A stretch of 62,543 nucleotides of DNA from Deferribacteres bacterium (GCA_013152795.1 JAADFS010000028.1:1-62543); one strand, 5' to 3'. Shown: positions 106 through 62,098, numbered from the stretch's first letter. Numbers and translations: made by a program. Notes: generated from the sequence alone by a model not told the origin.

Positions 106-2004
106 TTAATAATCCACCTCTACCGTTATGGATGTATCACACCCGAAAATATCTACCACCTTGACACAGGCGGTATATTTCCCTTTTTTCGGATATTTAT
201 CAAATTCATAATCTGAAACAGTGGGAAGGGAACGGTTTTTTCTTGTGCGGTATGCCTGCCAGTGATGCTCAAAGGGTTGTCCATCCTGGTAGTCGAAGTC
301 CACTGCCCAGAAGTCTATAAAGTCGAATCCGCTTTTTATTGCCCTTTCCTTGAGGGCTTCAAGTTCTTTGCTCGGAACCTCTGCAAGGGATGGAACAAAC
401 TTGGTCAGTTTAATATCAACGACTTTCTTGCCACTTACAGTCTTGTAAACAGGCTCCGCCTCAAGCACGGCAACTTCAAGGAACGGAGGCGGAGATGTCC
501 TGTTTTTTTCCATAATTTCACGTGGAATCGGAATAAGCTTAATTTTGATACCATGAGCATGTTCTATCTCAAGGCATACGAGCCTCAGGTCCATCTCAAA
601 CTCCCATGCAAGGCAATGCAGCTCCCTGGCCCCTGCCTCTTTTGCCGCTCCGGCAACAGCCCTTAATTCATCACGGGTAAAAAGCCCGTCTATGCTGTCA
701 ACATGACACAGGGCCGAACCTTTTCTGCCATGGATAAGCGGTGAGTTTGAGTTCTGCAGGACCTCTGCCCTGTAAAATCCAAGAACAACCTTCCGGTGCT
801 CCTCATCTGCACCTTTTAGCCTTTCCTTCTGCCACCACTGCCTTTCATACCTGCCGAGATTATAGACATCAAAGGCACGGTATGGTTTGCCTTCTTCATA
901 CAGTTTTCTCTGAACCTCAATCATCCGTTTTCGTGTGGTATGGATTGCAAACCTTCCAAGGTCTGCCATTATCCACCGCCTTCCGAGCCTTTCCGCAACC
1001 GCACCTGTAGTGCCTGAACCACAGAAGAAATCAGCCACAAGATTGCCTTCGTTGGAAGAGGCTTTTATAACGCGTTCAAGAAGGGCTTCTGGTTTTTGGG
1101 TCTGGAAGCCAACAAGTTCATTTCTGGATATTTGGCCGCCTGCAGGAATGTCAGGCCACCAATCTTCTGGAATTTTACCTTTGTTATATTCCCCCAAGAT
1201 ACGCTCGTCACGTTTTCTATTAGCATAAATACCACCTTTTCCTTCAATATATCTTCTGCGTTCCATAAAGCTTTCGCTATACTGCACTCTCACGGCATCT
1301 AAATTGAGAAAATAAGAGTCTGTTTTACTGTAACGCAGAATAATATCGTGTTTGTCTGGAAAATCTTTAACTTTACGAGAAGGACCGGTGTAGGCCCAAA
1401 TTATTTCGTTTCTGAAATTTTCGTTTCCTAAAACTTCATTTAGCATTAGCCTTAAATAACTATTAACTCGCCAGTCTATATGAACATAAATAGTCCCCGT
1501 CTCACTTAACAGCTCCTTCATCAGCACCAGCCGTTCATACATCATGTGCAAATAACTGTCCGTACCCTTCCCCCACATATCCCGATAAGCCACCATTTCA
1601 AGGGTTGACTGGTCTTTCCCTATCGTTTCCTTGCCTTCTCCGACAGGGATGTTCATTGTGAAATCAGCGCCTACATCAAAGGGTGGGTCAATGTATATAA
1701 TGTCGATCTTGCCTTTGAAGTCTTTCAGAAGGCTCGCCATGACGAGCTTGTTGTCGCCCCAGATGAGCATGTTTCTGAAATCATCCTTGTGGGCCTTTTC
1801 ATGATCAAAGAGGCCGAGAGGCTTTAATCTGCTTGCAGGCTCATCAATCGTCTCAATTTTCTGCATCGGCATGGCACATCCGGCAATATCAACCTCCCGC
1901 CTGTTGCCATACTCATCATACTTCCCTTCCCAGATAAGCTCCGTTTTCCGTGAGCTTAAAGGGTGGGGGTTGTCAGGGCCGTATATGTTTTTTTCATTGA
2001 GCAT
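106..2004 (-). CDS. DNA amino-methyltransferase (N6-adenine or N4-cytosine), beta-class motif order
   Basis: 632-aa ORF. Catalytic IYIDPPFD (motif IV) lies upstream of SAM-binding FFCGSGTTGAV (motif I). Long C-terminal extension of unknown role. Confidence 0.85.
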   Translation of the reverse strand: MLNEKNIYGPDNPHPLSSRKTELIWEGKYDEYGNRREVDIAGCAMPMQKIETIDEPASRLKPLGLFDHEKAHKDDFRNMLIWGDNKLVMASLLKDFKGKIDIIYIDPPFDVGADFTMNIPVGEGKETIGKDQSTLEMVAYRDMWGKGTDSYLHMMYERLVLMKELLSETGTIYVHIDWRVNSYLRLMLNEVLGNENFRNEIIWAYTGPSRKVKDFPDKHDIILRYSKTDSYFLNLDAVRVQYSESFMERRRYIEGKGGIYANRKRDERILGEYNKGKIPEDWWPDIPAGGQISRNELVGFQTQKPEALLERVIKASSNEGNLVADFFCGSGTTGAVAERLGRRWIMADLGRFAIHTTRKRMIEVQRKLYEEGKPYRAFDVYNLGRYERQWWQKERLKGADEEHRKVVLGFYRAEVLQNSNSPLIHGRKGSALCHVDSIDGLFTRDELRAVAGAAKEAGARELHCLAWEFEMDLRLVCLEIEHAHGIKIKLIPIPREIMEKNRTSPPPFLEVAVLEAEPVYKTVSGKKVVDIKLTKFVPSLAEVPSKELEALKERAIKSGFDFIDFWAVDFDYQDGQPFEHHWQAYRTRKNRSLPTVSDYEFDKYPKKGKYTACVKVVDIFGCDTSITVEVDY

Positions 2005-12342: not shown

Positions 12343-12419
12343 TGGGGTGAGCGATGGGACTCGAACCCACAACCACTGGAGCCACAGTCCAGTGCTCTAA
12401 CCATTGAGCTACGCTCACC
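12343..12419 (-). tRNA. tRNA-His (GTG anticodon)
   Basis: Reverse complement GGTGAGCGTAGCTCAATGGTTAGAGCACTGGACTGTGGCTCCAGTGGTTGTGGGTTCGAGTCCCATCGCTCACCCCA folds as a cloverleaf. Has the extra G-1, loop CTGTGGC and an encoded CCA. Confidence 0.9.
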
Positions 12420-16664: not shown

Positions 16665-16745
16665 ATGCCGTGGGGATAGGGTTCCGGACCCGACAAGGTG
16701 AATGCCTCCACCTTCCCCACGGCATAACCAGAGGCGATTTGGCAA
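16665..16745 (+). ncRNA. structured leader element, copy 1 (see findings)
   Basis: 11-bp outer helix ATGCCGTGGGG/CCCCACGGCAT encloses a 45-nt core identical to 17543-17587. Conserved tail AACCAGAGGC. Confidence 0.5.
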
Positions 16746-16865
16746 GGAGATGCTTTATATCCTGCATATCAAGGATTTTGCTGGTGTAAAGGACATAGTT
16801 GCATACACATGTGTTCTTTCAACAATCAGTGGGCTCTACAGCACATTGCCCCAGGGAGTGAATTG

Positions 16866-17528
16866 ATGAGCACAACCCTTGAATCTGTTGCAGAGAAACA
16901 TACTGATCAGGATATATGTCCCCGCTACCCCGGCAACCCGACCAGGACAGACTTGATGTGCGCCACAAGGCATAAGAAGGCCGTAAGGGATCCGGAGAAG
17001 ATCCTTTATTCGAATTGTGCTGACTGCAATATCGGTAAAGAGGCAGCAATGAAGGATATCAAACCGATCAAATATACAGCCAAGCATACATCGACCGATA
17101 CACATCCCTGTTCGCAGTGTGGCAGGCCTACCCGGGGCAAGTTATGTGCCGGATGTTTGCTCCAGGGCAAGTCAGGCTCTTCCAGGGAGACAAAGGAGAC
17201 AGAAATGCAAAAACAAAAGATCTGCAAGGTTGAAGGATGCGGCAATCCTTTCAAAGCAAGAGGTTATTGTGACAAGCACTATAAAAATGCCGTTAAAACC
17301 GGTGAGATTAAGACTACACCCAGGAATAAAAAGAAGATCAATCCTCAACCGGAGAAGCAGGAAACGTGCAATGCAGAGAATATGACCGCCATGCTTGCCC
17401 AGCTTCTCTATTGCAGCCGGGTTCTCGATTCCGAAATCAACGCCGCCATGCTTCAGAACAGGATCGAGATCAAGAATATATCCGATGTAAGGTTCCGCCT
17501 TGGAGAGATAATGAGAGGGGCTCTATAG
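16866..17528 (+). CDS. Cys-rich (zinc-ribbon-like) hypothetical protein
   Basis: CSQCGRPTRGKLCAGC and CKVEGCGNPFKARGYCDKHY motifs. ATG 16866 preceded by GGGAG; ATG 16809 is an alternative start. Confidence 0.5.
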   Translation: MSTTLESVAEKHTDQDICPRYPGNPTRTDLMCATRHKKAVRDPEKILYSNCADCNIGKEAAMKDIKPIKYTAKHTSTDTHPCSQCGRPTRGKLCAGCLLQGKSGSSRETKETEMQKQKICKVEGCGNPFKARGYCDKHYKNAVKTGEIKTTPRNKKKINPQPEKQETCNAENMTAMLAQLLYCSRVLDSEINAAMLQNRIEIKNISDVRFRLGEIMRGAL

Positions 17529-17536
17529 TCCCATCG

Positions 17537-17623
17537 CCTGCAGGGATAGGGTTCCGGACCCGACAAGGTGAATGCCTCCACCTTCCCTGCAGGACAACCA
17601 GAGGCATATATGGAAAGGAGGCA
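17537..17623 (+). ncRNA. structured leader element, copy 2, immediately 5' of the recombinase/Cas12-like operon
   Basis: 9-bp outer helix CCTGCAGGG/CCCTGCAGG around the same 45-nt core. Loop TGCCTCC (17573-17579) is complementary to the SD GGAGGCA (17617-17623). Confidence 0.5.
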
Positions 17624-17627
17624 TTCC

Positions 17628-18236
17628 ATGACAGCAGAGAGGACATCAACAAGGACAAGGGCCGGAGAGAACTATCTCACCGAGCAGGAAGAGAAAAGGC
17701 TTTTCAGACACCTGAAGGGCCTGAAATCCCGCCAGGCAGAGCGTGACTATGTGCTCCTGAAGCTCTGCCGGCTGACAGGGCTCAGGAGGGCTGAGGCACT
17801 GGCCCTCAATGTGGGGGATGTGATCAACCAGAAGAGAATAATCATCGACGAACGGATCGCGCGCAAGGGGGCCGTGGGGGAAGTCGGCATCCCGGTGGAA
17901 CTGCAAAAAATCATCAAGCGGTTCCTCTGGCTTAAGCGCACCTGGCGCGAAAGCCTTGATGACGAGGCCCCTCTGTTCGTGAGCAAGAGGGGCAACAGGC
18001 TCTCTCTGAGGGCCTTCAACGACCTGATGGACAAGTGGTGCAGATCGGCGGGGATCCCGCGCTATACTCCGCACGCCCTACGTCACACAAAGGCGCACAG
18101 GATACTTGAGAAGTCGGACAACCCTCCAAAGGCCCTGGTATATGTCAACAATCAACTGAGGCACAAGTCCTACAACTCGACACTCGTATACACCCTCCCT
18201 ACAAAGGAAGAGAGGGAGAAGGTGGCAGGGCTGTAA
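17628..18236 (+). CDS. minimal tyrosine recombinase (catalytic domain only)
   Basis: GLRRAEALAL (Arg), HALRHTKAH (HxxR), LRHKSYNSTLVYT (His/Tyr). About 200 aa with no N-terminal SAM-like core-binding domain. ATG 17628 preceded by AAGGAGG. Confidence 0.8.
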   Translation: MTAERTSTRTRAGENYLTEQEEKRLFRHLKGLKSRQAERDYVLLKLCRLTGLRRAEALALNVGDVINQKRIIIDERIARKGAVGEVGIPVELQKIIKRFLWLKRTWRESLDDEAPLFVSKRGNRLSLRAFNDLMDKWCRSAGIPRYTPHALRHTKAHRILEKSDNPPKALVYVNNQLRHKSYNSTLVYTLPTKEEREKVAGL

Positions 18237-18237
18237 C

Positions 18238-19761
18238 ATGGCGAACCATTTCAACAAGGGAGTCGTGTTCGGAAAACTGGCGGGGCTTGAACGGAAGAAA
18301 TCCGAAGGGGGCAAACCCTACATCCAGATATACCTCGAATGCCCGAACGATCTCCACGGGGATGCAAAGGTTTACGGCCGGATGTGGGGAGAAGACAGGG
18401 TCAATGCCTTCATGGCCGGGCTGAACAGAGACGGCAAGCTCCTCATGGGGACCGGGCTCAGGCTTGAAGGATTTTTCAGCCAATACGACGCAGAGGACGG
18501 TCTCTACTGGGCCAATGCGGCACATCTCAAGGACAAGTTCATGAATGCCTACTTCTCGTCTCTGAGGCATGGCAGGAAACTTCACTTCCATGCCTTTGAC
18601 GGCAACCTCAGGTTTGAGCATGTCTTCACATCCGGGGGGATCCCGGCTGAGAAGATCTTCACCGACAATCCAAGGCAGAAACGTATCAGGATAACTCCTA
18701 TTTCCCGGGATATCTACCAGGACAGGCAGCGGGGCATTATCTCTCAGCGGGAGATGAAACGAAAGGCGCGCACCGAGGCGTTGATAACGCTTGCAGGCCT
18801 CCAGATGAGGTTCCGGACCATATTGCACCGGCCGGTGCCGGAGGGGAGCATCCTCAAGAAAGCCGTCATCAAGCGGATCAGGACCGGGAGGTACAACTAC
18901 AGGTGGACTCTCTCGCTGACCGTAGAGGTCCCGCCGGATGATTCGATGCCCGCAGGACAGGCACCCGCCGGCAAGACGGCAGGGCTCGACGTCGGTTACA
19001 GGATGATCGACGGCCGCCTGCGTGTTGGCTATCTGGCTGGAGATGCCGGACAGATGGAGATATACCTGCCCGGCCGGATAATGGAGCGGTTCATCCATGT
19101 GCAGGAGCTGCAACAGAAGAGCGACGCCCTGCTTGAGGAGATGAAGGCACGCCTGGTCGAGATGCTCCCCGAGGGGCTCCCAGCGGAGCTGAAAGCAAAC
19201 TGGCATATGGCAAGGCACGGAAGGCTCAGAAAGATTATCCGTTGGCTTGCGGATAACAGCCCTGAACATATAGCCCTCAGGGAACTGCGGAAATGGGAGC
19301 GGCAGGATGCAGCGATACAGAATGAGAAGGAGGGACTCAGGAGGCGTGCAATCAGGCAGAGGCAATGGTTCTACTACAACCTCGCGCACAGGCTGGCCGG
19401 AGAGTATGGGACCCTTGTGATCGAATCTCTCAAGCCCGGCGACCTGCAGAGGAAGACCCAGCTTGATGACGACCGGACACTGCCCCGGAGAGCGTCTTTC
19501 TATCGAGGTATCGCTGCCGTTGGTGCTTTGCTCGACATTATTCAGGATGTCGGACGCCGAAAGGGCATGACGGTCCACAAGGTTGATCCCGCATACACCA
19601 CGTTGACCTGCCATGTCTGTGGTCATGTGGTAGAACCCGTTGACAGGGCCAGCCTGCTCTGGTGCTGCGACGGCTGCGGATCCGAGTGGGACCAGGACTA
19701 TAACGCTGCGTATAACCTCTATATGAGTGGAAGGGAGAGCAAAGAGGCAAAAGTTGCATAA
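18238..19761 (+). CDS. TnpB/Cas12-like RuvC nuclease, putative compact type V CRISPR effector
   Basis: 507 aa. RuvC-I TAGLDVGY (D251), RuvC-II TLVIESL (E396), RuvC-III WDQDYNAAYNL (D486/D488). Zinc ribbon CHVCGH..CCDGCG. DPAYTTLTC linker as in TnpB. Followed 47 nt later by a CRISPR array. Confidence 0.8.
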   Translation: MANHFNKGVVFGKLAGLERKKSEGGKPYIQIYLECPNDLHGDAKVYGRMWGEDRVNAFMAGLNRDGKLLMGTGLRLEGFFSQYDAEDGLYWANAAHLKDKFMNAYFSSLRHGRKLHFHAFDGNLRFEHVFTSGGIPAEKIFTDNPRQKRIRITPISRDIYQDRQRGIISQREMKRKARTEALITLAGLQMRFRTILHRPVPEGSILKKAVIKRIRTGRYNYRWTLSLTVEVPPDDSMPAGQAPAGKTAGLDVGYRMIDGRLRVGYLAGDAGQMEIYLPGRIMERFIHVQELQQKSDALLEEMKARLVEMLPEGLPAELKANWHMARHGRLRKIIRWLADNSPEHIALRELRKWERQDAAIQNEKEGLRRRAIRQRQWFYYNLAHRLAGEYGTLVIESLKPGDLQRKTQLDDDRTLPRRASFYRGIAAVGALLDIIQDVGRRKGMTVHKVDPAYTTLTCHVCGHVVEPVDRASLLWCCDGCGSEWDQDYNAAYNLYMSGRESKEAKVA

Positions 19762-19808
19762 CCCCGGCTTTAATATGCTGAAAAGAAACAGGAAAAGAGA
19801 GGGGTGCA

Positions 19809-20111
19809 GTAGGAAAACTGGGTCCAGGTCAGGAAGCCTGGAACAGGGACAATCCCTGAGGGGATAGGAAGGCGGGCCTGTAGGAAAACTGGGTCCAGGT
19901 CAGGAAGCCTGGAACTCCGGATGGTGATAAATTTTTCCATGTTTAAGTAGGAAAACTGGGTCCAGGTCAGGAAGCCTGGAACTGGGGATCAACGGGTTTC
20001 TTGCCGCCGCTTTCTTGGTAGGAAAACTGGGTCCAGGTCAGGAAGCCTGGAACTGGCGTTCAGGATAGCAAGTCCGTCCGCGATGCTGGGTAGGAAAACT
20101 GGGTCCGGAAC
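19809..20111 (+). CRISPR. CRISPR array: 4 identical 36-nt repeats, 1 truncated terminal repeat, 4 spacers
   Basis: Repeat GTAGGAAAACTGGGTCCAGGTCAGGAAGCCTGGAAC at 19809, 19880, 19947 and 20018. Spacers of 35, 31, 35 and 36 nt, all different. Terminal unit 20090-20111 is GTAGGAAAACTGGGTCC+GGAAC. Confidence 0.9.
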
Positions 20112-20198
20112 GACCAAGTTCACCGGTGAGCGGTAGCGAGTTCGGTGCAGCGCATTGTTGGGCCTGATGGCCTTAATCTAAATACAGGAGGTTACGCT

Positions 20199-20387
20199 AT
20201 GAAACTGAGGAACATTCTTATCATTCAGGCTATTATCGTTCTGTTCATTGGTATAGGCTGGGTGAAAAATCTTATTAAACTCGCACATTGTGATTTTGAG
20301 GCCCCATATCAGGCTGAGGTTATCTATGCCGCTGGCTTGATTCCACCTGTGGGGGCTATAACCGGCTGGCTTGACCTTGGGAAGTGA
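20199..20387 (+). CDS. small membrane protein
   Basis: ATG 20199 preceded by CAGGAGG. Two hydrophobic helices (ILIIQAIIVLFIGIGWV, IYAAGLIPPVGAITGWL). Confidence 0.45.
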   Translation: MKLRNILIIQAIIVLFIGIGWVKNLIKLAHCDFEAPYQAEVIYAAGLIPPVGAITGWLDLGK

Positions 20388-20395
20388 GGTGAATC

Positions 20396-20737
20396 ATGAA
20401 AAACAAAGGCTTTACTTTCATCGAACTTCTTATCATCCTCGCAATGGCCGGGATTGTTGCGACCATGTTCTTTGGCTTGGTCGTAAATAATCGTGGGGCA
20501 ACCGAGCGCAGGGCCTTCGCCGGGGCAGTGAAATTTGCAACCGGCAACAATATTACAGTCAAGCGCATTTCATGTGCCGGAGATTCAAACCGTGACGGAT
20601 ATGGCACTTGTGCCATTTCCACGGAAGATAATCAGCGTATAATGCTCCAGTGCCCGACAGATTATTTTGACGTTGAATGGTTCGGAGCAAGCGGCTGTAA
20701 AGAGGTTTTCCAGGATTTCAATTTTACGATTAGATGA
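20396..20737 (+). CDS. type IV pilin-like / pseudopilin protein with prepilin N-terminal methylation motif
   Basis: MKNKGFTFIELLIILAMAGIVA is the canonical G|FTxxE prepilin signal. Four Cys in the C-terminal part. Confidence 0.7.
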   Translation: MKNKGFTFIELLIILAMAGIVATMFFGLVVNNRGATERRAFAGAVKFATGNNITVKRISCAGDSNRDGYGTCAISTEDNQRIMLQCPTDYFDVEWFGASGCKEVFQDFNFTIR

Positions 20738-20765
20738 GGATAGGCTCAACCTTCAAGGAGTAGAT

Positions 20766-21107
20766 GTGGAATATAACTGGCACAGAGAAGTCATTGACAA
20801 GGCAACCAGGGCCATATCGCGGCACGCGCAGAAGCTGTACGACGAGGGCCTTGATCTCAGCGGATGGTTCTCTTTCTTTGAGAAGAATCATCCAGAGGTC
20901 TTCAGCAAGTATCTGAAGATACCCGAAAGGCTCAACAGGGCGAAGGCTAAAAACTCCATGTCGGAGTTCAAAAAGATAGCAAAAGAATACCAGGACACCG
21001 AGATATGGGCAATCAACCAGTTCGCAGAACACCTTGAGAAGGAAAAAACCAAGGCCCTTGAGGCCATGAGGGAAAAACGGAGAGATCCGCAGGAGGTGCT
21101 TATATGA
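20766..21107 (+). CDS. hypothetical protein
   Basis: GTG 20766 preceded by AAGGAG. The longer ORF from 20667 overlaps the pilin-like gene. Confidence 0.4.
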   Translation: MEYNWHREVIDKATRAISRHAQKLYDEGLDLSGWFSFFEKNHPEVFSKYLKIPERLNRAKAKNSMSEFKKIAKEYQDTEIWAINQFAEHLEKEKTKALEAMREKRRDPQEVLI

Positions 21108-21448
21108 CACATGAGGAGTTCAACGAGGTCCTCGAAGCACGATTCGAGAAAAGCCGCATGGTACTTGCAAAAAAGGCCGGAGAATACGCCCGGGGCGACC
21201 GGCTCAGCAACTTCAAGAAGGCTGCCGGTGCACTCCAGTGCACTCCGCACAAGGCCCTTGTCGGCATGTGGATGAAGCACATCATCAGCATCATCGACAT
21301 GGTCGACGACATGGAGAAAGGTAAGGACACATCTTACATTATATGGGATGAAAAGATCGGCGATGCAATCAATTACCTGATACTGCTTGATGGATTGGTC
21401 TGTGAGGGCCTTGGCGTCAAACCAACTCAAGAGGTTGAGAATGTTTGA
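21104..21448 (+). CDS. DUF1599-like (nucleotide-modification-associated domain 1) protein
   Basis: GDRLSNFKKAA..ALVGMWMKHIISIIDMV resembles the DUF1599 pattern as recalled. ATGA overlap with the upstream stop. Confidence 0.45.
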   Translation: MTHEEFNEVLEARFEKSRMVLAKKAGEYARGDRLSNFKKAAGALQCTPHKALVGMWMKHIISIIDMVDDMEKGKDTSYIIWDEKIGDAINYLILLDGLVCEGLGVKPTQEVENV

Positions 21449-23136: not shown

Positions 23137-24861
23137 GTGCTTATCGCACGGACTGTTATGGACATAAGGACAGATCGTGCGCAGACGTCCATCCTCGACG
23201 CCGTAATTGCACGTCCAGGCATCGGGAACGTCGGAGACGCTCTCGTTTGGGATCAATTCGAAATATTTGCAATCAGGATAGGTATTCATAAAAAAAGTAT
23301 AGCAAAAAGGAGAAGTATTATCAAGGAACTCATAGTCGACAACTTTGCAGGAGGTGGCGGGGCTTCGGTAGGCATAGAGGCTGCGCTCGGGCGACCGGTG
23401 GACATTGCGGTCAATCATGACCCGGTTGCCATTGCCATGCACAAGGCAAACCATCCGCGCACGCGGCATCTGAACGAAAATATCTGGGACGTTGATCCGG
23501 TCGATATTTGCGCCGGCCGGCCTGTCGGTCTCGCATGGTTCAGCCCGGACTGTACTCACTTCAGCAAGGCCAAGGGCGGACGGCCGGTCAATAAGAAGAT
23601 ACGGGGCCTCGCCTGGGTGGTTCTCAAGTGGGCCGCTACCGTGCGGCCGCGGATAATCATACTCGAGAATGTCGAGGAGTTCGTCACCTGGGGACCACTC
23701 GTAAAGAAAGAGGACGGCAACCACTACCCCTGCCCGAAGCGCAAGGGTCAGACCTTCAAGGTCTTCGTGAACGCCCTCAAAAAGCACGGTTATGACGTCA
23801 ACTGGCGGGAGCTTCGGGCCTGTGACTACGGGGCCCCGACCATAAGAAAACGTCTCTTCCTGATAGCCCGCTGCGACGGGCAGGCCATAACCTGGCCTGA
23901 GCCCACGCACGGGGACCCGAAAAGCAAGGCGGTCAGGATAGGACGGTTGAAGCCCTGGCGGACGGCCGCAGAGTGCATTGACTGGTCTATCCCATGCCCC
24001 TCGATATTTATGACCAGGGAAGAGGCCAGGGCATACGGCGTCAAGCGGCCACTGGCCGAGGCGACCATGAGGCGCATAGCAAGGGGCATCAAGCGGTATG
24101 TCCTGGATGCGGCGGAGCCATTTATCGTGCCAATAGCTCATTATAATGGCCGAGATACCATTCATGGCATAAATGATCCATTCAGGACCGTTACCGCCAA
24201 CCCCAGGGGAGGGTCATTCAGCTTGGTGATGCCTTCTCTCATGCACCTGACCCATCATGGAAAGCAGACCCTTGTCTCTGCTTTCCTCGCCAAGCATTAT
24301 GGTGGGGTCGTTGGTACCAGTATGGACAGCCCCATAAGCACGGTAACGAGCAAAGATCACCATTCGCTCGTCACCGCCCACATCATAAAGCTATATGGCA
24401 CGAATACCGGTCATGCTTGTAATGAACCCCTTCATACGGTCACGGCTGGGGGTTTTCATCTCGGCGAGGTATGGGCCTTCCTCATGAAGTATTACGGCAC
24501 GGACCAGGACCCTCAACTCCGCAAGCCCTTGCATACGGTCACTACAAAGGACCGTTTCGGTCTCGTTACGGTCCATGGGGAGGAATACCGGATAGTGGAC
24601 ATAGGCATGAGGATGCTTACACCGAGGGAACTTTTCCGGGCGCAGGGGTTCCCGGACAGCTACATCATTGACATAGGGCACGACCCAAGGGAACTCTTCC
24701 GGGACAAGCCCCTCACGAAGACCCAGCAGGTTGCCCTGTGCGGCAACTCTGTATGCCCCGACTTGGCGAAAATCCTCGTCGAGTCGAATTATGAAGCAGG
24801 CAATGGAATCCTTTCAGAAAAATGCGATACAACAGGGATGTCTACACTCCAACCCACCTGA
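23137..24861 (+). CDS. DNA (cytosine-5)-methyltransferase with expanded target-recognition region
   Basis: Motif I DNFAGGGGAS, motif IV FSPDCTHFSKA, motif VI IILENV, motif X CGNSVCP. Four tandem ~32-aa modules between motifs VIII and IX. Exact start uncertain. Confidence 0.88.
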   Translation: MLIARTVMDIRTDRAQTSILDAVIARPGIGNVGDALVWDQFEIFAIRIGIHKKSIAKRRSIIKELIVDNFAGGGGASVGIEAALGRPVDIAVNHDPVAIAMHKANHPRTRHLNENIWDVDPVDICAGRPVGLAWFSPDCTHFSKAKGGRPVNKKIRGLAWVVLKWAATVRPRIIILENVEEFVTWGPLVKKEDGNHYPCPKRKGQTFKVFVNALKKHGYDVNWRELRACDYGAPTIRKRLFLIARCDGQAITWPEPTHGDPKSKAVRIGRLKPWRTAAECIDWSIPCPSIFMTREEARAYGVKRPLAEATMRRIARGIKRYVLDAAEPFIVPIAHYNGRDTIHGINDPFRTVTANPRGGSFSLVMPSLMHLTHHGKQTLVSAFLAKHYGGVVGTSMDSPISTVTSKDHHSLVTAHIIKLYGTNTGHACNEPLHTVTAGGFHLGEVWAFLMKYYGTDQDPQLRKPLHTVTTKDRFGLVTVHGEEYRIVDIGMRMLTPRELFRAQGFPDSYIIDIGHDPRELFRDKPLTKTQQVALCGNSVCPDLAKILVESNYEAGNGILSEKCDTTGMSTLQPT

Positions 24862-33970: not shown

Positions 33971-33982
33971 GAAAATAAAAAC

Positions 33983-34002
33983 TGACATAAACTGACACGA
34001 AA
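33983..34002 (+). promoter_or_regulatory. late-operon box A, copy 1 (TGACATAAACTGACACGAAA)
   Basis: 20-nt sequence identical to 38923-38942. Contains a direct repeat ACTGACA-N3-ACTGACA. Sits upstream of the terminase genes. Confidence 0.45.
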
Positions 34003-34108
34003 CCATAGACCTCCAGGTGCCTCTATGATATGATTTCTCGTAGAGGCACGGAATGCCAGATGTGGTTGGAAAGACCGCACCGGGCTTTTTGTCTTCTGGA
34101 GGTCGGCA

Positions 34109-38854: not shown

Positions 38855-38925
38855 ACGTGAGATGTCCATATTGTGGAGAGATTTATGAACCGGATTTCGG
38901 GTTATGCCCAAGATGCAGAAATTGA
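38851..38925 (+). CDS. 24-aa zinc-ribbon micro-ORF
   Basis: MNVRCPYCGEIYEPDFGLCPRCRN (CxxC..CxxC). ATGA overlap with the portal stop. Not in the ORF track. Confidence 0.3.
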   Translation: MNVRCPYCGEIYEPDFGLCPRCRN

Positions 38926-38942
38926 CATAAACTGACACGAAA
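38923..38942 (+). promoter_or_regulatory. late-operon box A, copy 2
   Basis: Identical 20-mer, here preceded by T so that it reads TTGACA. Sits upstream of the head-gene cluster. Confidence 0.45.
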
Positions 38943-39023
38943 GTATCGAATTTTCAGACTATATCTGCTATAAATTAAGCAATACCGGGCTTTTTTGTTT
39001 CAGAAAAAATGATGGAGGTGAAT

Positions 39024-60080: not shown

Positions 60081-61103
60081 ATGGCACTTGTGATAATGGA
60101 GCGGGATGCAATCCTGCACGGGTATACGAGCCTGCAATCGGACAGGGATGCGATACTGCATGGGTACACGACCCTGCAATCGGACAGGGATATCATACTT
60201 GCAGGTCACGAAACTCTGAGCACAGACAGGGATTTCATCCTCGACGCCCACCCGGGGCGTGAAGTAGATACTGTCCTTTCCGGAAAGACACCCCTTGAGC
60301 GCGCTCCCATCCTCGCAGGCAAGACCCACCTTTCACAAAACAGGTATACCGTGCTCAGAGGACTTGACCATGCCATGGCAGAACTGGATTGCATCCTTCA
60401 AGGCCTCGAACATTACATTGACAGAGACTTTATCGTTGCCGTTAAGCCGCAGGAGGAGCGTTCATTCATCCTGCAGGCCCATGAAGATATCCCTGCCGGC
60501 AAGACGAGGCGCCTTACCCTGTTTGATACCCTCAACCTCAGAAGTACGAGTATCTACAGGAATCCCCGGGATATCTCAACTCTTCAGATCGTAATCGGGG
60601 ACCTCTCAAGCAGCAGGGTTCCCTGCACTCCCCTTGATGAATCGGGGACGATATATCACGTCTCTGACAGACCTATTCAGAGCATATCAAAGGTCTATGT
60701 CGAGGGAGAACCCAAAACCTTTGGGTATCGGGCATATACATCCTACCAGGACGAGACCGGTCAATCGATCGCCTGCGTGGTCTTTGACAATCCACAGTAC
60801 GATAAAAGCGTCTCTGTTGCATGTAAGGGCGTTATCGATGTCAAAACTGGAGGTCTGCTTGAAAACCCTGCTGATATCATCAATTATGTGTTTTTGGAGA
60901 TTCAGGGGTATGATGAAAACTCTATAGATTCAGGGGAGATTTCGAGGTTTTACTCCGACTGTCTCAAGGAAGACCTCAAAATAGGATATGTTTTAGATGA
61001 ATCTGTTACCGTGAAGCAGTTCCTTGATGACCTTGCCATGAATATTCACGCAAGGTGGATGATCAGCGATGGCAAATCCGTGATGAGGTTGATGTGGCTG
61101 TAA
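60081..61103 (+). CDS. tail fibre/baseplate protein with N-terminal 14-residue periodic repeats
   Basis: RDAILHGYTSLQSD x2, then RDIILAGHETLSTD, RDFILDAHPGREVD and more degenerate units. C-terminal ENPADIINYVFLE-type domain. Confidence 0.5.
   Translation: MALVIMERDAILHGYTSLQSDRDAILHGYTTLQSDRDIILAGHETLSTDRDFILDAHPGREVDTVLSGKTPLERAPILAGKTHLSQNRYTVLRGLDHAMAELDCILQGLEHYIDRDFIVAVKPQEERSFILQAHEDIPAGKTRRLTLFDTLNLRSTSIYRNPRDISTLQIVIGDLSSSRVPCTPLDESGTIYHVSDRPIQSISKVYVEGEPKTFGYRAYTSYQDETGQSIACVVFDNPQYDKSVSVACKGVIDVKTGGLLENPADIINYVFLEIQGYDENSIDSGEISRFYSDCLKEDLKIGYVLDESVTVKQFLDDLAMNIHARWMISDGKSVMRLMWL
60103..60270 (+). repeat. four tandem 42-nt units (coding 14-aa repeats)
   Basis: GGGAT(G/A/T).. restarts at 60103, 60145, 60187 and 60229. 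The first two units are near-identical at nucleotide level. Confidence 0.7.
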
Positions 61104-62098
61104 GAGATATTGACAGGGATATCATACTTGATGCTCATCCAGGGAGAGAGACAGACTTCATCCTGGGTGCAAAGACATATCTCGATCGTGGAATTGTTTT
61201 GCAAGGCACTACTTCGCGACAATTTTCACGGTATGCTGTCCTTGCCGGGTCGCAACTGAAAAATTCAGATGCCGATATTATTATAGCGGGCAAGAACTTC
61301 TTTGAGCGTGATTATATTCTTTACACGAAATCACAGAACGAGATAGATATCGTTCTGAACGCGGACGATCCTCCTGAAATCTACGTGCGCTATTCCTTTA
61401 GGGAAGATGAAATGGAGGATTTTCTCCTCTCTCCTGCCGGACGTCCGACCAATGAGATCACGATTAATTATGCTTACGATTTCGTCTCCGGCAAGGCGAG
61501 GCAATCTATCACAAAGCATAATCCTGTATCAAAGATATTGTATGGCCAGAACAGAAAGACCCTCAATCTCAGGATGATTCACGGTACCAGGCAGGCTGAG
61601 AAAATCGCAGATGCAATATTGAAGACATCTTCCATTCCCCCTGTGAAGGTATCTTTCATTCATGATCTGAGGAGTTTCCATCTTGAGGTGGGAGATCTCG
61701 TCACAATTACCCATCGCGCTGGCATGGGTGACGATGGATACAAGTCCGTGATCGCGATGATAACTAAAAAGCGGTTCAGCGGGACAGGTATCAGTTATGA
61801 GGCAATCATTAAGCCACAGGGACTTTTCTACAAGTCCGAACTCATGACATTATCTCACGTCTCAGAGGCTGGCAGGGAGGGAGTCACGGTCACATATGAG
61901 CACGGTGTTGCCACGATCACAATCTATGCGGATGTTCAGGGCTACCCTCCTGTTGAGGGTGCCGAAATCACGATATCAGGGGTTACGAAGATTTCGGACA
62001 AAAACGGTCAGGTCCGCTTCAAACTTGAGCCCGGAACTTATACCGCGTCAATCAAGGCCTCAGGCTATGATGACAGCGAGGTAACATTTACGGTATGA
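61094..62098 (+). CDS. paralogous tail protein with the same 14-residue repeat and a C-terminal Ig/carboxypeptidase-regulatory-like domain
   Basis: DRDIILDAHPGRETDFILGAKTYL.. parallels the upstream gene. C-terminus GAEITISGVTKISDKNGQVRFKLEPGTYTASIKASGY. GTG 61094 or GTG 61055 are possible starts. Confidence 0.5.
   Translation: MAVRDIDRDIILDAHPGRETDFILGAKTYLDRGIVLQGTTSRQFSRYAVLAGSQLKNSDADIIIAGKNFFERDYILYTKSQNEIDIVLNADDPPEIYVRYSFREDEMEDFLLSPAGRPTNEITINYAYDFVSGKARQSITKHNPVSKILYGQNRKTLNLRMIHGTRQAEKIADAILKTSSIPPVKVSFIHDLRSFHLEVGDLVTITHRAGMGDDGYKSVIAMITKKRFSGTGISYEAIIKPQGLFYKSELMTLSHVSEAGREGVTVTYEHGVATITIYADVQGYPPVEGAEITISGVTKISDKNGQVRFKLEPGTYTASIKASGYDDSEVTFTV

What the first reader, a model, noticed from the sequence alone, without database searches (positions are those of the whole stretch)
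17537..20111. Prophage-borne minimal type V-like CRISPR module: structured leader, mini tyrosine recombinase, 507-aa RuvC effector and 4-spacer array, with no adaptation genes
**Seen in sequence.** Four co-oriented, tightly packed parts:
- A structured leader at 17537-17623.
- A 202-aa tyrosine recombinase at 17628-18236.
- One nucleotide later, a 507-aa ORF with a complete RuvC I/II/III triad and a CxxC..CxxC zinc ribbon in TnpB/Cas12 order.
- 47 nt after its stop, four identical 36-nt repeats plus one truncated repeat, separating four unique 31-36 nt spacers.
- No cas1, cas2, cas4 or other cas-like ORF anywhere in the 62 kb.
- The locus lies in the early/accessory region of an integrated phage.

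**Established knowledge.**
- Type V effectors descend from TnpB.
- Adaptation-less phage-encoded type V loci exist (Cas12j/CasPhi, Cas-lambda), but their effectors are roughly 700-800 aa.
- Cas12f effectors are about 400-700 aa and need a tracrRNA.

**Inference.** This is either a hypercompact phage-encoded RNA-guided nuclease used against competing mobile elements, or, given the coupled recombinase, a guide-linked recombination or mobility module. I do not recognise this gene combination.
Basis: partly seen in the sequence, partly recalled or inferred. Interest (0 to 1): 0.92.

Follow-up and report, generated by a model that had tools for sequence, protein, structure and literature searches.

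The report
Truncated Cas12m CRISPR fragment in prophage
This is a piece of a known DNA-binding CRISPR system (type V-M, Cas12m) that landed inside a gene of an integrated phage, so the 507-aa "mini effector" is a fusion of 88 phage-derived residues with a Cas12m lacking its first ~150 residues, and the neighbouring recombinase and RNA structure are ordinary parts of the phage.

Summary
The sequence features are real: a 202-aa tyrosine recombinase, a 507-aa ORF, four identical 36-nt repeats plus a 17-nt stump, and four unique spacers.

**What the ORF is.** It is not a new hypercompact type V effector. It is Cas12m (subtype V-M, formerly V-U1), a known, adaptation-less, tracrRNA-free, DNA-binding subtype already reported on plasmids and some prophages.

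**Why it is only 507 aa.** The ORF is a chimera.
- Residues 1-88 are 88.6% identical to the N-terminus of a 211-aa phage protein. In the closest related phage that protein sits directly after the same recombinase.
- Cas12m homology starts at residue 89 and aligns to about residue 150-160 of full-length Cas12m.
- The missing part includes elements shown experimentally to matter for PAM and DNA binding.
- The array also ends abruptly inside a repeat.

**Recombinase.** It belongs to a large, well-conserved family of about 205 aa. It occupies the same early-operon position in 10 related loci, none with Cas12m. None of 112 Cas12m-relative loci has it.

**"Leader".** It is a covarying RNA structure with a second copy 870 nt upstream.

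**Spacers.** No targets were found.

**Verdict.** A captured, 5'-truncated V-M locus, probably impaired for DNA targeting. Interest is modest.

The parts
16666..16735 (+). Copy 1 of a ~60-nt structured intergenic element (outer stem enclosing two hairpins, plus a conserved 3' flank). It lies upstream of the HNH-like ORF 16809-17528 and is not part of the CRISPR module.
   Evidence: It is a 63-nt direct repeat of 17543-17605 at 92% identity. It folds at -45.5 kcal/mol, z = -3.5. Five outer-stem pairs carry compensatory changes across three versions. There is no Rfam match.
17536..17621 (+). Copy 2 of the same structured element (stem 17536-17594, conserved flank to 17605), followed by the Shine-Dalgarno sequence AAAGGAGG (17614-17621) of the recombinase gene.
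   Evidence: DNA homology to the related phage contig L113 begins exactly here (window 17537-18500 = L113 1861-2835, 80% identity). The same element sits upstream of the recombinase in L113-L116.
17628..18236 (+). 202-aa tyrosine recombinase made of the catalytic domain only. It occupies the same early-operon position throughout a family of related temperate phages.
   Evidence: PF00589 8.8e-22; PHROG integrase families. More than 200 homologues of about 203-208 aa at 57-83% identity. R53, K80, H149, R152, H179 and Y188 are conserved in at least 97% of 120 members. The gene holds the same position in loci L113-L122, none with Cas12m.
18238..18501 (+). Codons 1-88 of the 507-aa ORF. This is the N-terminal remnant of a conserved 197-213-aa phage protein of unknown function.
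   Evidence: 88.6% identical over 88 aa to the start of the 211-aa ORF L113:2573-3208. About 31-33% identical to the starts of the 197-213-aa ORFs in L117, L118 and L120-L122. The C-terminal 123 aa of that protein are absent from the window. dN/dS against L113 is 0.04. No Pfam or PHROG family matches.
18502..19761 (+). Codons 89-507: a Cas12m (type V-M) effector lacking its first ~150 residues. It keeps the rest of REC1 from the YW motif, the WED core, RuvC with D251/E396/D487, and the TNB zinc ribbon with C458/C461/C477/C480.
   Evidence: PADLOC Cas12u1 2.6e-58, query 84-498 = profile 131-530 of 533. PDB 23vw_A Cas12m 5.1e-44, query 86-496 = chain 156-569. 98 relatives at E<1e-30, all aligning from query residue ~85 onward. 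Conserved residues are retained.
19762..19808 (+). 47-nt spacer region between the cas12m stop codon and the first repeat (putative array leader).
   Evidence: Direct reading of the sequence. No promoter-like match was called here.
19809..20106 (+). CRISPR array: four identical 36-nt repeats GTAGGAAAACTGGGTCCAGGTCAGGAAGCCTGGAAC, four unique spacers (35, 31, 35, 36 nt), and a fifth repeat cut off after 17 nt.
   Evidence: The repeat has the same layout as most repeats next to Cas12m relatives: a pseudoknot with a 3-bp stem I, a 6-7-bp stem II, and a terminal AC. There is no anti-repeat nearby. After nt 17 of the last repeat, similarity stops abruptly.
20107..20666 (+). Additional cargo absent from related phages: a 62-aa membrane ORF (20199-20387) and a 113-aa pilin-like ORF with an N-terminal methylation motif (20396-20737). 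It is not demonstrably part of the CRISPR fragment.
   Evidence: phrog_6006 3.4e-8; PF07963 N_methyl 1.1e-5. No homologue in any fetched locus. The phage backbone resumes at 20667 (ORF 20667-21107 = L113 3247-3684 at 57% aa identity; 21104-21448 = L113 3684-3986 at 80%).

Best explanation
**What it is.** A fragment of a type V-M (Cas12m) CRISPR-Cas locus has replaced the 3' two-thirds of a conserved early gene of a temperate phage integrated in a Deferribacteres genome. The replacement arose by illegitimate recombination, or by insertion followed by deletion.

**What the fragment contains**
- cas12m from about codon 150 onward.
- The 47-nt gap after the stop codon.
- Four repeat-spacer units.
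- 17 nt of a fifth repeat.

**How the junction reads.** The left junction is in frame. The early operon therefore encodes a 507-aa chimera: 88 residues of the phage protein followed by Cas12m residues about 150 to the end.

**What is unrelated.** The mini tyrosine recombinase directly upstream and the structured element in its 5' UTR are backbone features of this phage family. They have no link to CRISPR.

**Likely function (inferred).**
- The array is probably co-transcribed with the early operon.
- The retained WED core, RuvC and zinc-ribbon parts may still bind, and perhaps process, the pseudoknotted crRNA.
- The chimera lacks the N-terminal WED strand, the first REC1 helix, the REC2 coiled coil with its arginine cluster, and the PAM-contacting tyrosine.
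- Canonical Cas12m action is PAM-dependent, crRNA-guided dsDNA binding that silences competing mobile elements without cutting. That action is most likely weakened or lost here.

**Shown versus inferred.** Shown: the identity of each part, the chimeric junction, and the lack of recombinase linkage. Inferred: the functional state.
For: **Cas12m identity**
-.

**Chimera**
- Residues 1-88 are 88.6% identical to the start of the 211-aa ORF that follows the recombinase in L113-L116.
- They are about 31-33% identical to the starts of the 197-213-aa ORFs in five further phage loci.
- DNA homology to L113 runs from 17537 to 18500 and stops.
- Cas12m homology starts at L89-Y90-W91.
- The rest of the phage gene is absent from the window.
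- The backbone resumes at 20667.

**Missing hallmark N-terminus**
- All full-length relatives carry an N-terminal "RKRDWP...WNxL" module. So do naturally compact relatives of 490-535 aa.
- W91 aligns with Cas12m2 W152.
- The missing part therefore includes the equivalents of M4, H12, R111, R112, R126 and Y141.
- Y141A strongly affected DNA binding. The R111A/R112A/R126A triple mutant showed reduced DNA binding (PMC10442227).
- It also includes the "Roof", residues 50-124 of GoCas12m (PMC11013384).

**Array**
- The last repeat is cut abruptly after 17 nt.
- The repeat has the pseudoknot layout typical of V-M repeats.

**Recombinase is a phage backbone gene**
-.
- 0 of 112 Cas12m-relative loci carry it.

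**Literature**
- V-M systems on plasmids and some prophages; DNA binding without cleavage even for D-E-D orthologues.
Against: **Points that would fit a working protein**
- The fusion is in frame.
- The Cas12m-derived part deviates from family-conserved residues no more than typical relatives do: 4 of 38 conserved columns, 3 of them in the missing N-terminus.
- D251, E396 and D487 and both CxxC pairs are intact.
- All four repeats are identical.
- The 88 phage-derived codons show dN/dS = 0.04 against L113 even though synonymous sites are near saturation.

These facts fit a very recent event, but they fit a selected, functional chimera equally well.

**Limits of the evidence**
- Only one contig carries the chimera, so there is no population or comparative evidence.
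- The AlphaFold model is uninformative for residues 1-242 (pLDDT below 50).
Confidence: 0.72

Rival explanations
1. The chimera is a functional, naturally minimised RNA-guided effector. The phage-derived 88-aa domain substitutes for the missing WED strand and REC elements, or makes them unnecessary. The phage uses the four spacers to silence competing mobile elements.
For: - The fusion is in frame and sits inside the early operon.
- Conserved Cas12m residues are retained.
- The repeats are identical.
- dN/dS is 0.04 on the N-terminal 88 codons.
- Natural Cas12m-like proteins of 490-535 aa exist without the coiled coil.
- Phage- and plasmid-borne V-M systems are thought to act in competition between elements.
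Against: - Every compact natural relative still keeps the N-terminal "RKRDWP...WNxL" module that is absent here.
- The missing residues include ones whose mutation strongly affected or reduced DNA binding in Cas12m2.
- The array is also truncated inside a repeat, which looks like a scar rather than a design.
- No protospacer was found anywhere.
- The chimera is a singleton in 5.8 billion protein clusters.
Confidence: 0.2
2. The recombinase and the RNA-guided protein form a coupled, guide-linked recombination or mobility module.
For: Only adjacency: the genes are 1 nt apart and co-oriented.
Against: - The recombinase family occupies the same early-operon position in 10 related loci without any Cas12m.
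- No recombinase homologue lies within 6-8 kb of 112 Cas12m relatives.
- In the nearest relative, the gene after the recombinase is the intact 211-aa phage gene, so the adjacency was created by the insertion or deletion event.
Confidence: 0.02
3. An ordinary IS200/IS605 or IS607 TnpB whose "repeats" are duplicated transposon ends.
For: Weak TnpB-family matches to the C-terminal RuvC/zinc-ribbon part (NCBIfam guided_TnpB 74 bits; PF07282).
Against: - All TnpB models score below their cut-offs: 74 against 100, 52 against 350, 29 against 425.
- The Cas12m matches are far stronger.
- The repeats are regularly spaced 36-mers with unique spacers and a V-M pseudoknot.
- No TnpA-like gene was noticed among the ORFs next to the locus.
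Confidence: 0.01
4. Assembly chimera: the MAG contig wrongly joins a phage and an unrelated V-M locus.
For: There is a single contig with no replicate. Junctions fall inside a gene and inside a repeat.
Against: - Phage backbone is present on both sides of the insert and is colinear with L113. Two independent mis-joins would therefore be needed.
- No shared sequence is evident at the left junction that could cause a mis-join.
- GC3 of the Cas12m part (0.705) equals that of the adjacent phage genes (0.705-0.729).
Confidence: 0.04

Closest known systems
Type V-M CRISPR-Cas, Cas12m (formerly V-U1/C2c4): MmCas12m/Cas12m2, GoCas12m, MsCas12m, PmCas12m; PDB 23vw, 23vu, 8hhl, 8pm4
   Same: - Sequence family: E = 5e-44 to PDB 23vw, 2.6e-58 to the Cas12u1 profile.
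- D-E-D triad, as in clades 3 and 4.
- TNB zinc ribbon.
- Array directly downstream with a 36-nt repeat that forms the same pseudoknot.
- No tracrRNA and no adaptation genes.
- Carried on a mobile element.
   Different: - It lacks the first ~150 residues: the WED N-terminal strand, the first REC1 helix, the REC2 coiled coil ("Roof"), the arginine cluster and the Y141 equivalent.
- It carries 88 residues of an unrelated phage protein in their place.
- The array is cut inside its last repeat.
- Nearest relative is only 47% identical.
Phage-encoded adaptation-less type V systems (Cas12j/CasPhi, Cas-lambda) and phage mini-arrays
   Same: A phage-borne, single-effector type V locus with a short array and no cas1/cas2. 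Its presumed role is competition between mobile elements.
   Different: CasPhi matches only marginally (E = 0.13-0.19, zinc-ribbon region only). Those effectors are active nucleases of 700-800 aa, whereas Cas12m proteins bind DNA without cutting.
TnpB of IS200/IS605 and IS607, and Cas12f
   Same: Shared RuvC plus zinc-ribbon core (PF07282). Cas12m is thought to be an early derivative of TnpB.
   Different: All curated TnpB and Cas12f models score below cut-off. There are no transposon ends, no TnpA, no long omega-RNA or tracrRNA. It has a true repeat-spacer array.
Small tyrosine recombinases/invertases such as FimB/FimE and the Xer catalytic domain (for the 202-aa gene)
   Same: The R-K-H-R-H-Y catalytic set, a length of about 200 aa, and hits to XerA/XerC/XerD and to tyrosine-type invertase models.
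   Different: All hits are far below the curated cut-offs. The gene defines its own family of about 205 aa, which occupies the same early-operon position in phages that also carry a normal ~360-aa integrase. Its substrate is unknown.

Membership tests
Type V-M CRISPR-Cas (Cas12m) | Effector homologous to Cas12m/V-U1 over WED-RuvC-TNB | tested here: met
   PADLOC Cas12u1 2.6e-58. PDB Cas12m 23vw_A 5.1e-44 and UnCas12m4a 6.7e-23. 98 relatives at E<1e-30.
Type V-M CRISPR-Cas (Cas12m) | Complete effector architecture, including the N-terminal WED strand, REC1 helix 1 and (usually) the REC2 coiled coil | tested here: not met
   Homology starts at query residue ~85-89 and aligns to residue ~131-160 of profiles and structures. 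Residues 1-88 are homologous to a phage protein instead. Compact natural relatives keep the "RKRDWP...WNxL" N-terminus.
Type V-M CRISPR-Cas (Cas12m) | Adjacent CRISPR array whose 36-37-nt repeat forms a 3'-proximal pseudoknot handle | tested here: met
   Four identical 36-nt repeats lie 47 nt downstream. The stem I / stem II / terminal AC layout is the same as in repeats of related loci. It also matches the pairing described for PmCas12m crRNA.
Type V-M CRISPR-Cas (Cas12m) | No tracrRNA and no adaptation module | tested here: met
   No anti-repeat longer than 8 nt lies within 5 kb. No Cas1, Cas2 or Cas4 is among the visible PADLOC matches of 75 ORFs, but only the top 25 of 98 families are shown, so a weak Cas2 cannot be strictly excluded.
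Type V-M CRISPR-Cas (Cas12m) | RuvC triad of a described Cas12m clade | tested here: met
   D251/E396/D487. 120 of 154 aligned family members are D-E-D. Clades 3 and 4 are D-E-D/NED/DND (PMC10442227).
Type V-M CRISPR-Cas (Cas12m) | crRNA-guided, PAM-dependent dsDNA binding without cleavage | not testable with these tools
   Known for characterised orthologues. It is doubtful here because PAM- and NTS-contacting elements are missing.
IS200/IS605 or IS607 TnpB | Score above the curated family cut-off; transposon ends and TnpA nearby | tested here: not met
   guided_TnpB 74.2 against 100; IS607_TnpB 52 against 350; IS200_TnpB 28.6 against 425. No TnpA-like ORF was noticed next to the locus. The repeats are a spaced array, not transposon ends.
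Cas12f (V-F) | Score above cut-off; tracrRNA | tested here: not met
   NCBIfam Cas12f2 36 bits against 450. PDB Cas12f matches cover only the zinc ribbon. No anti-repeat.
Recombinase-coupled RNA-guided module (hypothetical) | Conserved co-occurrence of the recombinase with the Cas12m-like gene | tested here: not met
   0 of 112 Cas12m-relative loci have a homologue of the recombinase. 0 of 10 recombinase-family loci have Cas12m.
Tyrosine recombinase superfamily (202-aa gene) | Catalytic R-K-H-R-H/W-Y residues | tested here: met
   R53, K80, H149, R152, H179 and Y188 are conserved in at least 97% of 120 family members. PF00589 8.8e-22.

The most novel reading that the evidence does not exclude
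The in-frame chimera is a selected, working protein. In this reading it is a natural Cas12m whose N-terminal WED strand and REC1/REC2 elements have been swapped for an unrelated 88-aa phage domain, and it still uses the crRNAs. That would define a ~420-aa functional Cas12m core. It could also give a new mode of action, for example crRNA sequestration or processing, ssDNA or replication-fork targeting, or recruitment of Cas12m to the phage replication machinery through the phage domain. The very low dN/dS of the phage-derived part and the undecayed Cas12m part do not exclude this.
Probability: 0.15. Interest if true: 0.7.

Novelty: new member of a known kind. Interest (0 to 1): 0.3.

Why it matters
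As pitched, this would have been a new hypercompact phage nuclease, or a guide-linked recombinase, and either would be a major find. The evidence shows instead a known subtype (V-M/Cas12m) on a prophage, which the literature already reports. The small size comes from truncation and fusion, and the recombinase is an unrelated neighbour.

What remains of value:
- A clean natural example of how CRISPR fragments are captured and scarred inside phage genomes. It also warns against calling "miniature effectors" from ORF length and catalytic motifs alone.
- A natural N-terminal deletion and swap of Cas12m. It could be tested cheaply to map the minimal crRNA-binding core, which is relevant to efforts to shrink Cas12m for delivery.
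- Two uncharacterised phage features seen along the way: a covarying ~60-nt 5'-UTR RNA structure, and a widespread family of ~205-aa catalytic-domain-only tyrosine recombinases in phage early operons.

Tried and rejected
**Spacer targets: none found**
- No match in the window at up to 8 mismatches, and only chance-level short matches by blastn-short.
- None in GenBank phages or PLSDB plasmids.
- No exact 19-nt seed of any spacer in IMG/VR.
- None in the 122 fetched loci.

**Searches for closer relatives that found nothing**
- Repeat sequence in IMG/VR: no match.
- Structured-element core in IMG/VR: no match.
- Rfam: no family for the element, at gathering or at E up to 10.
- The search for related loci with the recombinase in IMG/VR: nothing.
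- GenBank phages hold only about 30%-identical integrases and only distant TnpB-like matches to the effector.
- A second word-indexed protein search with a family alignment added nothing, because candidates were swamped.
- Exact-sequence look-ups of the window's own proteins were not on record.

**Structure**
- The AlphaFold2 model from a 5-sequence alignment is confident for most of residues 243-501 (short dips near 310-330 and 400-420). It is not confident for residues 1-242, so it could not show whether the phage domain packs against the WED core. It was not used for a fold search.
- A closer-relative alignment could not be submitted because of tool restrictions.

**Family searches**
- Pfam and PHROG searches on the 88-aa N-terminus and on the full 211/213-aa phage proteins found no family. 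An SSB/OB-like impression from reading the sequence is therefore not claimed.

**Readings considered and rejected**
- Integron-like attC reading of the two element copies. They are direct repeats flanking the HNH-like ORF, but there is no evidence of cassette behaviour. The element is absent from most phages that carry the recombinase.
- Hammerhead or other known ribozyme: no conserved core and no Rfam hit.


Full report
**1. Observation.**
- The region contains a 202-aa ORF (17628-18236) and a 507-aa ORF (18238-19761) that starts one base after the first ORF's stop.
- 47 nt downstream lie four identical copies of GTAGGAAAACTGGGTCCAGGTCAGGAAGCCTGGAAC at 19809, 19880, 19947 and 20018. Shuffled sequence gives 0 expected matches.
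- A fifth copy stops after 17 nt (20090-20106).
- The spacers are unique and are 35, 31, 35 and 36 nt long.
- The element upstream of the first ORF folds into an outer stem enclosing two hairpins.
- The sequence-level description is therefore correct.

**2. Setting.**
- The window is a whole 62,543-bp contig of a Deferribacteres MAG.
- Positions about 6-12 kb carry host-type genes, a histidine kinase and an outer-membrane beta-barrel protein.
- tRNA-His lies at 12343-12418.
- To its right come an integrase, a CI-like repressor and a rightward early operon with a CII-like activator. Further on are a DNA methyltransferase, a ~1000-aa primase, terminase, portal and tape-measure genes.
- "Integrated phage, early region" is correct.

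**3. The 507-aa ORF is Cas12m (type V-M, formerly V-U1).**
- PADLOC's Cas12u1 profile matches at 2.6e-58.
- The best solved structure is a "CRISPR-associated DNA-binding protein Cas12m" (23vw_A, 5.1e-44). Next come UnCas12m4a and, more weakly, Cas12m2.
- With a family profile, Cas12m2 and 8pm4 also align end to end.
- An exhaustive HMMER search finds 98 representatives at E<1e-30. The nearest is 47% identical.
- TnpB and Cas12f models are all far below their cut-offs.
- The triad is D251/E396/D487, as in 120 of 154 aligned relatives.
- Cas12m clades 3 and 4 are of the D-E-D type (PMC10442227).

**4. What is known about V-M.**
- V-M systems are strongly enriched on plasmids and are "also encoded by some prophages" (PMC11656645).
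- They use a single ~50-60-nt crRNA and no tracrRNA.
- Orthologues with D-E-D, H-D-D and N-D-D triads all bind dsDNA in a PAM-dependent way without cutting it. They protect by blocking transcription or replication (PMC11013384).
- Relatives of the window protein occur on 17 IMG/VR viral contigs.
- A phage-borne, adaptation-less V-M locus is therefore an already known kind of thing.

**5. The array is a genuine V-M array.**
- Of the 112 related loci fetched, 46 have arrays detectable by a simple k-mer scan.
- Where a full-length repeat was recovered it is typically 36-37 nt, and the arrays listed lie shortly after the cas12m match.
- Those repeats and the window repeat share one layout:
  - an 8-9-nt tail;
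  - a 3-nt stem I;
  - a 2-nt linker;
  - a 6-7-bp stem II whose loop begins with the 3' strand of stem I;
  - a terminal AC.
- The layout matches the pairing described for PmCas12m crRNA.
- This fixes transcription on the + strand.
- No anti-repeat is present.

**6. The recombinase is not part of the module.**
- It belongs to a family of more than 200 proteins, almost all 203-208 aa and 57-83% identical to it.
- Its catalytic set R53-K80-H149-R152-H179-Y188 is essentially invariant.
- In every context retrieved (L113-L122 and one gene list without DNA), it sits in the same place in related temperate phages. The order is integrase, HTH repressor, CII/CP76-like activator, small ORFs, mini-recombinase, small ORFs, a 197-213-aa ORF, and where the contig extends far enough a ~1000-aa primase or a DUF5131-plus-methylase module.
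- None of these loci has a Cas12m.
- Conversely, tblastn with the recombinase finds nothing within 6-8 kb of the Cas12m gene in 112 related loci.

**7. The key finding: the 507-aa ORF is a chimera.**
- In the nearest relative (L113-L116, recombinase 83% identical) the gene after the recombinase is a 211-aa ORF.
- Its first 88 residues are 88.6% identical to residues 1-88 of the window ORF.
- More distant phages (L117, L118, L120-L122) have 197-213-aa homologues that match the same 80-odd residues at about 31-33%.
- At DNA level, window 17537-18500 aligns with L113 1861-2835 at 80% identity and then stops dead.
- The protein junction reads ...FFSQYDAEDG(88)|LYWANAAHL...
- From L89 onward the sequence is Cas12m, aligned to about residue 150-160 of full-length proteins.
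- The C-terminal 123 residues of the phage protein are nowhere in the window.
- The phage backbone resumes at 20667.
- At the other end, the fifth repeat loses all similarity after nt 17. The captured V-M piece (18501-20106) is therefore truncated at both ends.
- Between 20107 and 20666 lie two small ORFs, one membrane and one pilin-like. They are absent from relatives.

**8. What the truncation removes.**
- Full-length relatives begin with "M.RKK.RDWP....YW.KP...P.....EA.KMN.LWN.LVE", followed by a long coiled coil.
- Naturally compact relatives of 490-535 aa drop the coiled coil but keep that N-terminal module.
- Aligning Cas12m2 to the family profile puts the window's W91 at Cas12m2 W152.
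- The missing part therefore contains the equivalents of:
  - M4 and H12, the WED contacts to the heteroduplex and the crRNA;
  - the REC2 "Roof";
  - the arginine cluster R111/R112/R126;
  - the PAM-contacting Y141.
- Y141A strongly affected DNA binding, and the triple arginine mutant reduced it (PMC10442227; PMC11013384).
- Inference: the retained WED core, RuvC and TNB may still hold the crRNA, but PAM-dependent dsDNA binding is probably compromised.

**9. Is the chimera decaying?** Not visibly.
- The Cas12m-derived part departs from family-conserved residues at only one position within the retained region, which is no worse than typical relatives.
- The four repeats are identical.
- The 88 phage-derived codons show dS about 1.6, dN 0.066 and dN/dS 0.04 against L113. 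They are even more constrained than the recombinase, at 0.09.
- GC3 of the Cas12m part (0.705) equals that of the neighbouring phage genes.
- These data mean one of two things. Either the event is very recent relative to the split from L113, or the fusion is under selection. They cannot tell the two apart.
- An in-frame junction has a one-in-three chance under neutrality.
- I put about 0.2 on a functional RNA-guided chimera. I put about 0.7 on a recent, impaired fragment.

**10. The "structured leader".**
- A second copy lies at 16666-16735, upstream of an HNH-like ORF. A third version sits upstream of the recombinase in L113-L116.
- The 45-nt core is identical in the two window copies.
- The outer stem differs by compensatory changes: five pairs have both sides changed and none is broken within the stem proper. 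That is good evidence for a conserved fold.
- Each copy is followed about 20 nt later by a Shine-Dalgarno sequence and a start codon.
- There is no Rfam match. The element is absent from the more distant phages that carry the recombinase.
- It is a lineage-specific phage 5'-UTR element of unknown function, not a CRISPR leader.

**11. Spacers.**
- No protospacer was found in the window, in the fetched loci, in GenBank phages, in PLSDB plasmids or in IMG/VR as exact seeds.
- The targets remain unknown. That is common for environmental arrays and gives no information about function.

**12. Verdict.**
- It is not a new gene combination and not a hypercompact nuclease. It is a 5'-truncated, phage-fused copy of a known DNA-binding effector with a truncated array, lying by accident next to a phage backbone recombinase.
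- Novelty: a new (and damaged, or at least rearranged) member of a known kind.
- The residual interest lies in three things: the unexcluded possibility that the chimera works, the uncharacterised RNA element, and the uncharacterised mini-recombinase family.

Noticed in passing
window 16666-16735 and 17536-17605; L113:1860-1925: A ~60-nt RNA-like structure (outer stem enclosing two hairpins) in the 5' UTR of two consecutive early genes. The 45-nt core is identical in both window copies, and the outer stem has 4-5 compensatory base-pair changes. There is no Rfam family. It is found only in this phage lineage.
   Followed up: partly
window 17628-18236; loci L113-L122: A large, highly conserved family (57-83% identity, about 205 aa) of catalytic-domain-only tyrosine recombinases. 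It holds a fixed position in the early operon of temperate phages that also encode a normal ~360-aa integrase. Its substrate and role are unknown.
   Followed up: partly
L113:2573-3208, L117:5732-6373, L120:4138-4752, L121:6047-6640 (remnant at window 18238-18501): A conserved 197-213-aa phage protein with no Pfam or PHROG family. It lies downstream of the mini-recombinase in the same early operon, upstream of the primase where one is present. The window phage has lost its C-terminal 123 residues, so the prophage may be replication-defective.
   Followed up: partly
window 20199-20387 and 20396-20737: Two small cargo ORFs absent from related phages: a 62-aa membrane protein (phrog_6006) and a 113-aa protein with a type IV pilin-like N-terminal methylation motif (PF07963).
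   Followed up: partly
window 16809-17528: A cysteine-rich 239-aa ORF with weak HNH-endonuclease PHROG matches, flanked by the two copies of the structured element. A 37%-identical homologue sits at the same position in L113.
   Followed up: partly
window 33979-34009 and 38919-38949: A 31-nt direct repeat (AAACTGACATAAACTGACACGAAA...). One copy lies about 1 kb upstream of the terminase gene and the other just after the portal gene. It could be a late-gene regulatory site.
   Followed up: no
window 60098-60181, 60183-60250, 61112-61137: A 42-nt tandem duplication followed by related 26-nt repeats in the distal tail region.
   Followed up: no
representative-search hits P0016, P0031, P0064, P0070, P0082, P0093, P0095, P0146: Naturally compact Cas12m-like proteins of 490-535 aa that lack the REC2 coiled coil but keep the canonical N-terminal module. 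Some have non-DED triads, for example EKD in P0016.
   Followed up: partly
window 106-2004 and 23137-24861: Two DNA methyltransferase genes. One is at the host-side contig end (N6_N4_Mtase). The other is in the phage early region (PHROG 116). One window ORF, not identified by the tool output, gives a very strong type III methyltransferase match in PADLOC (1.8e-246).
   Followed up: no
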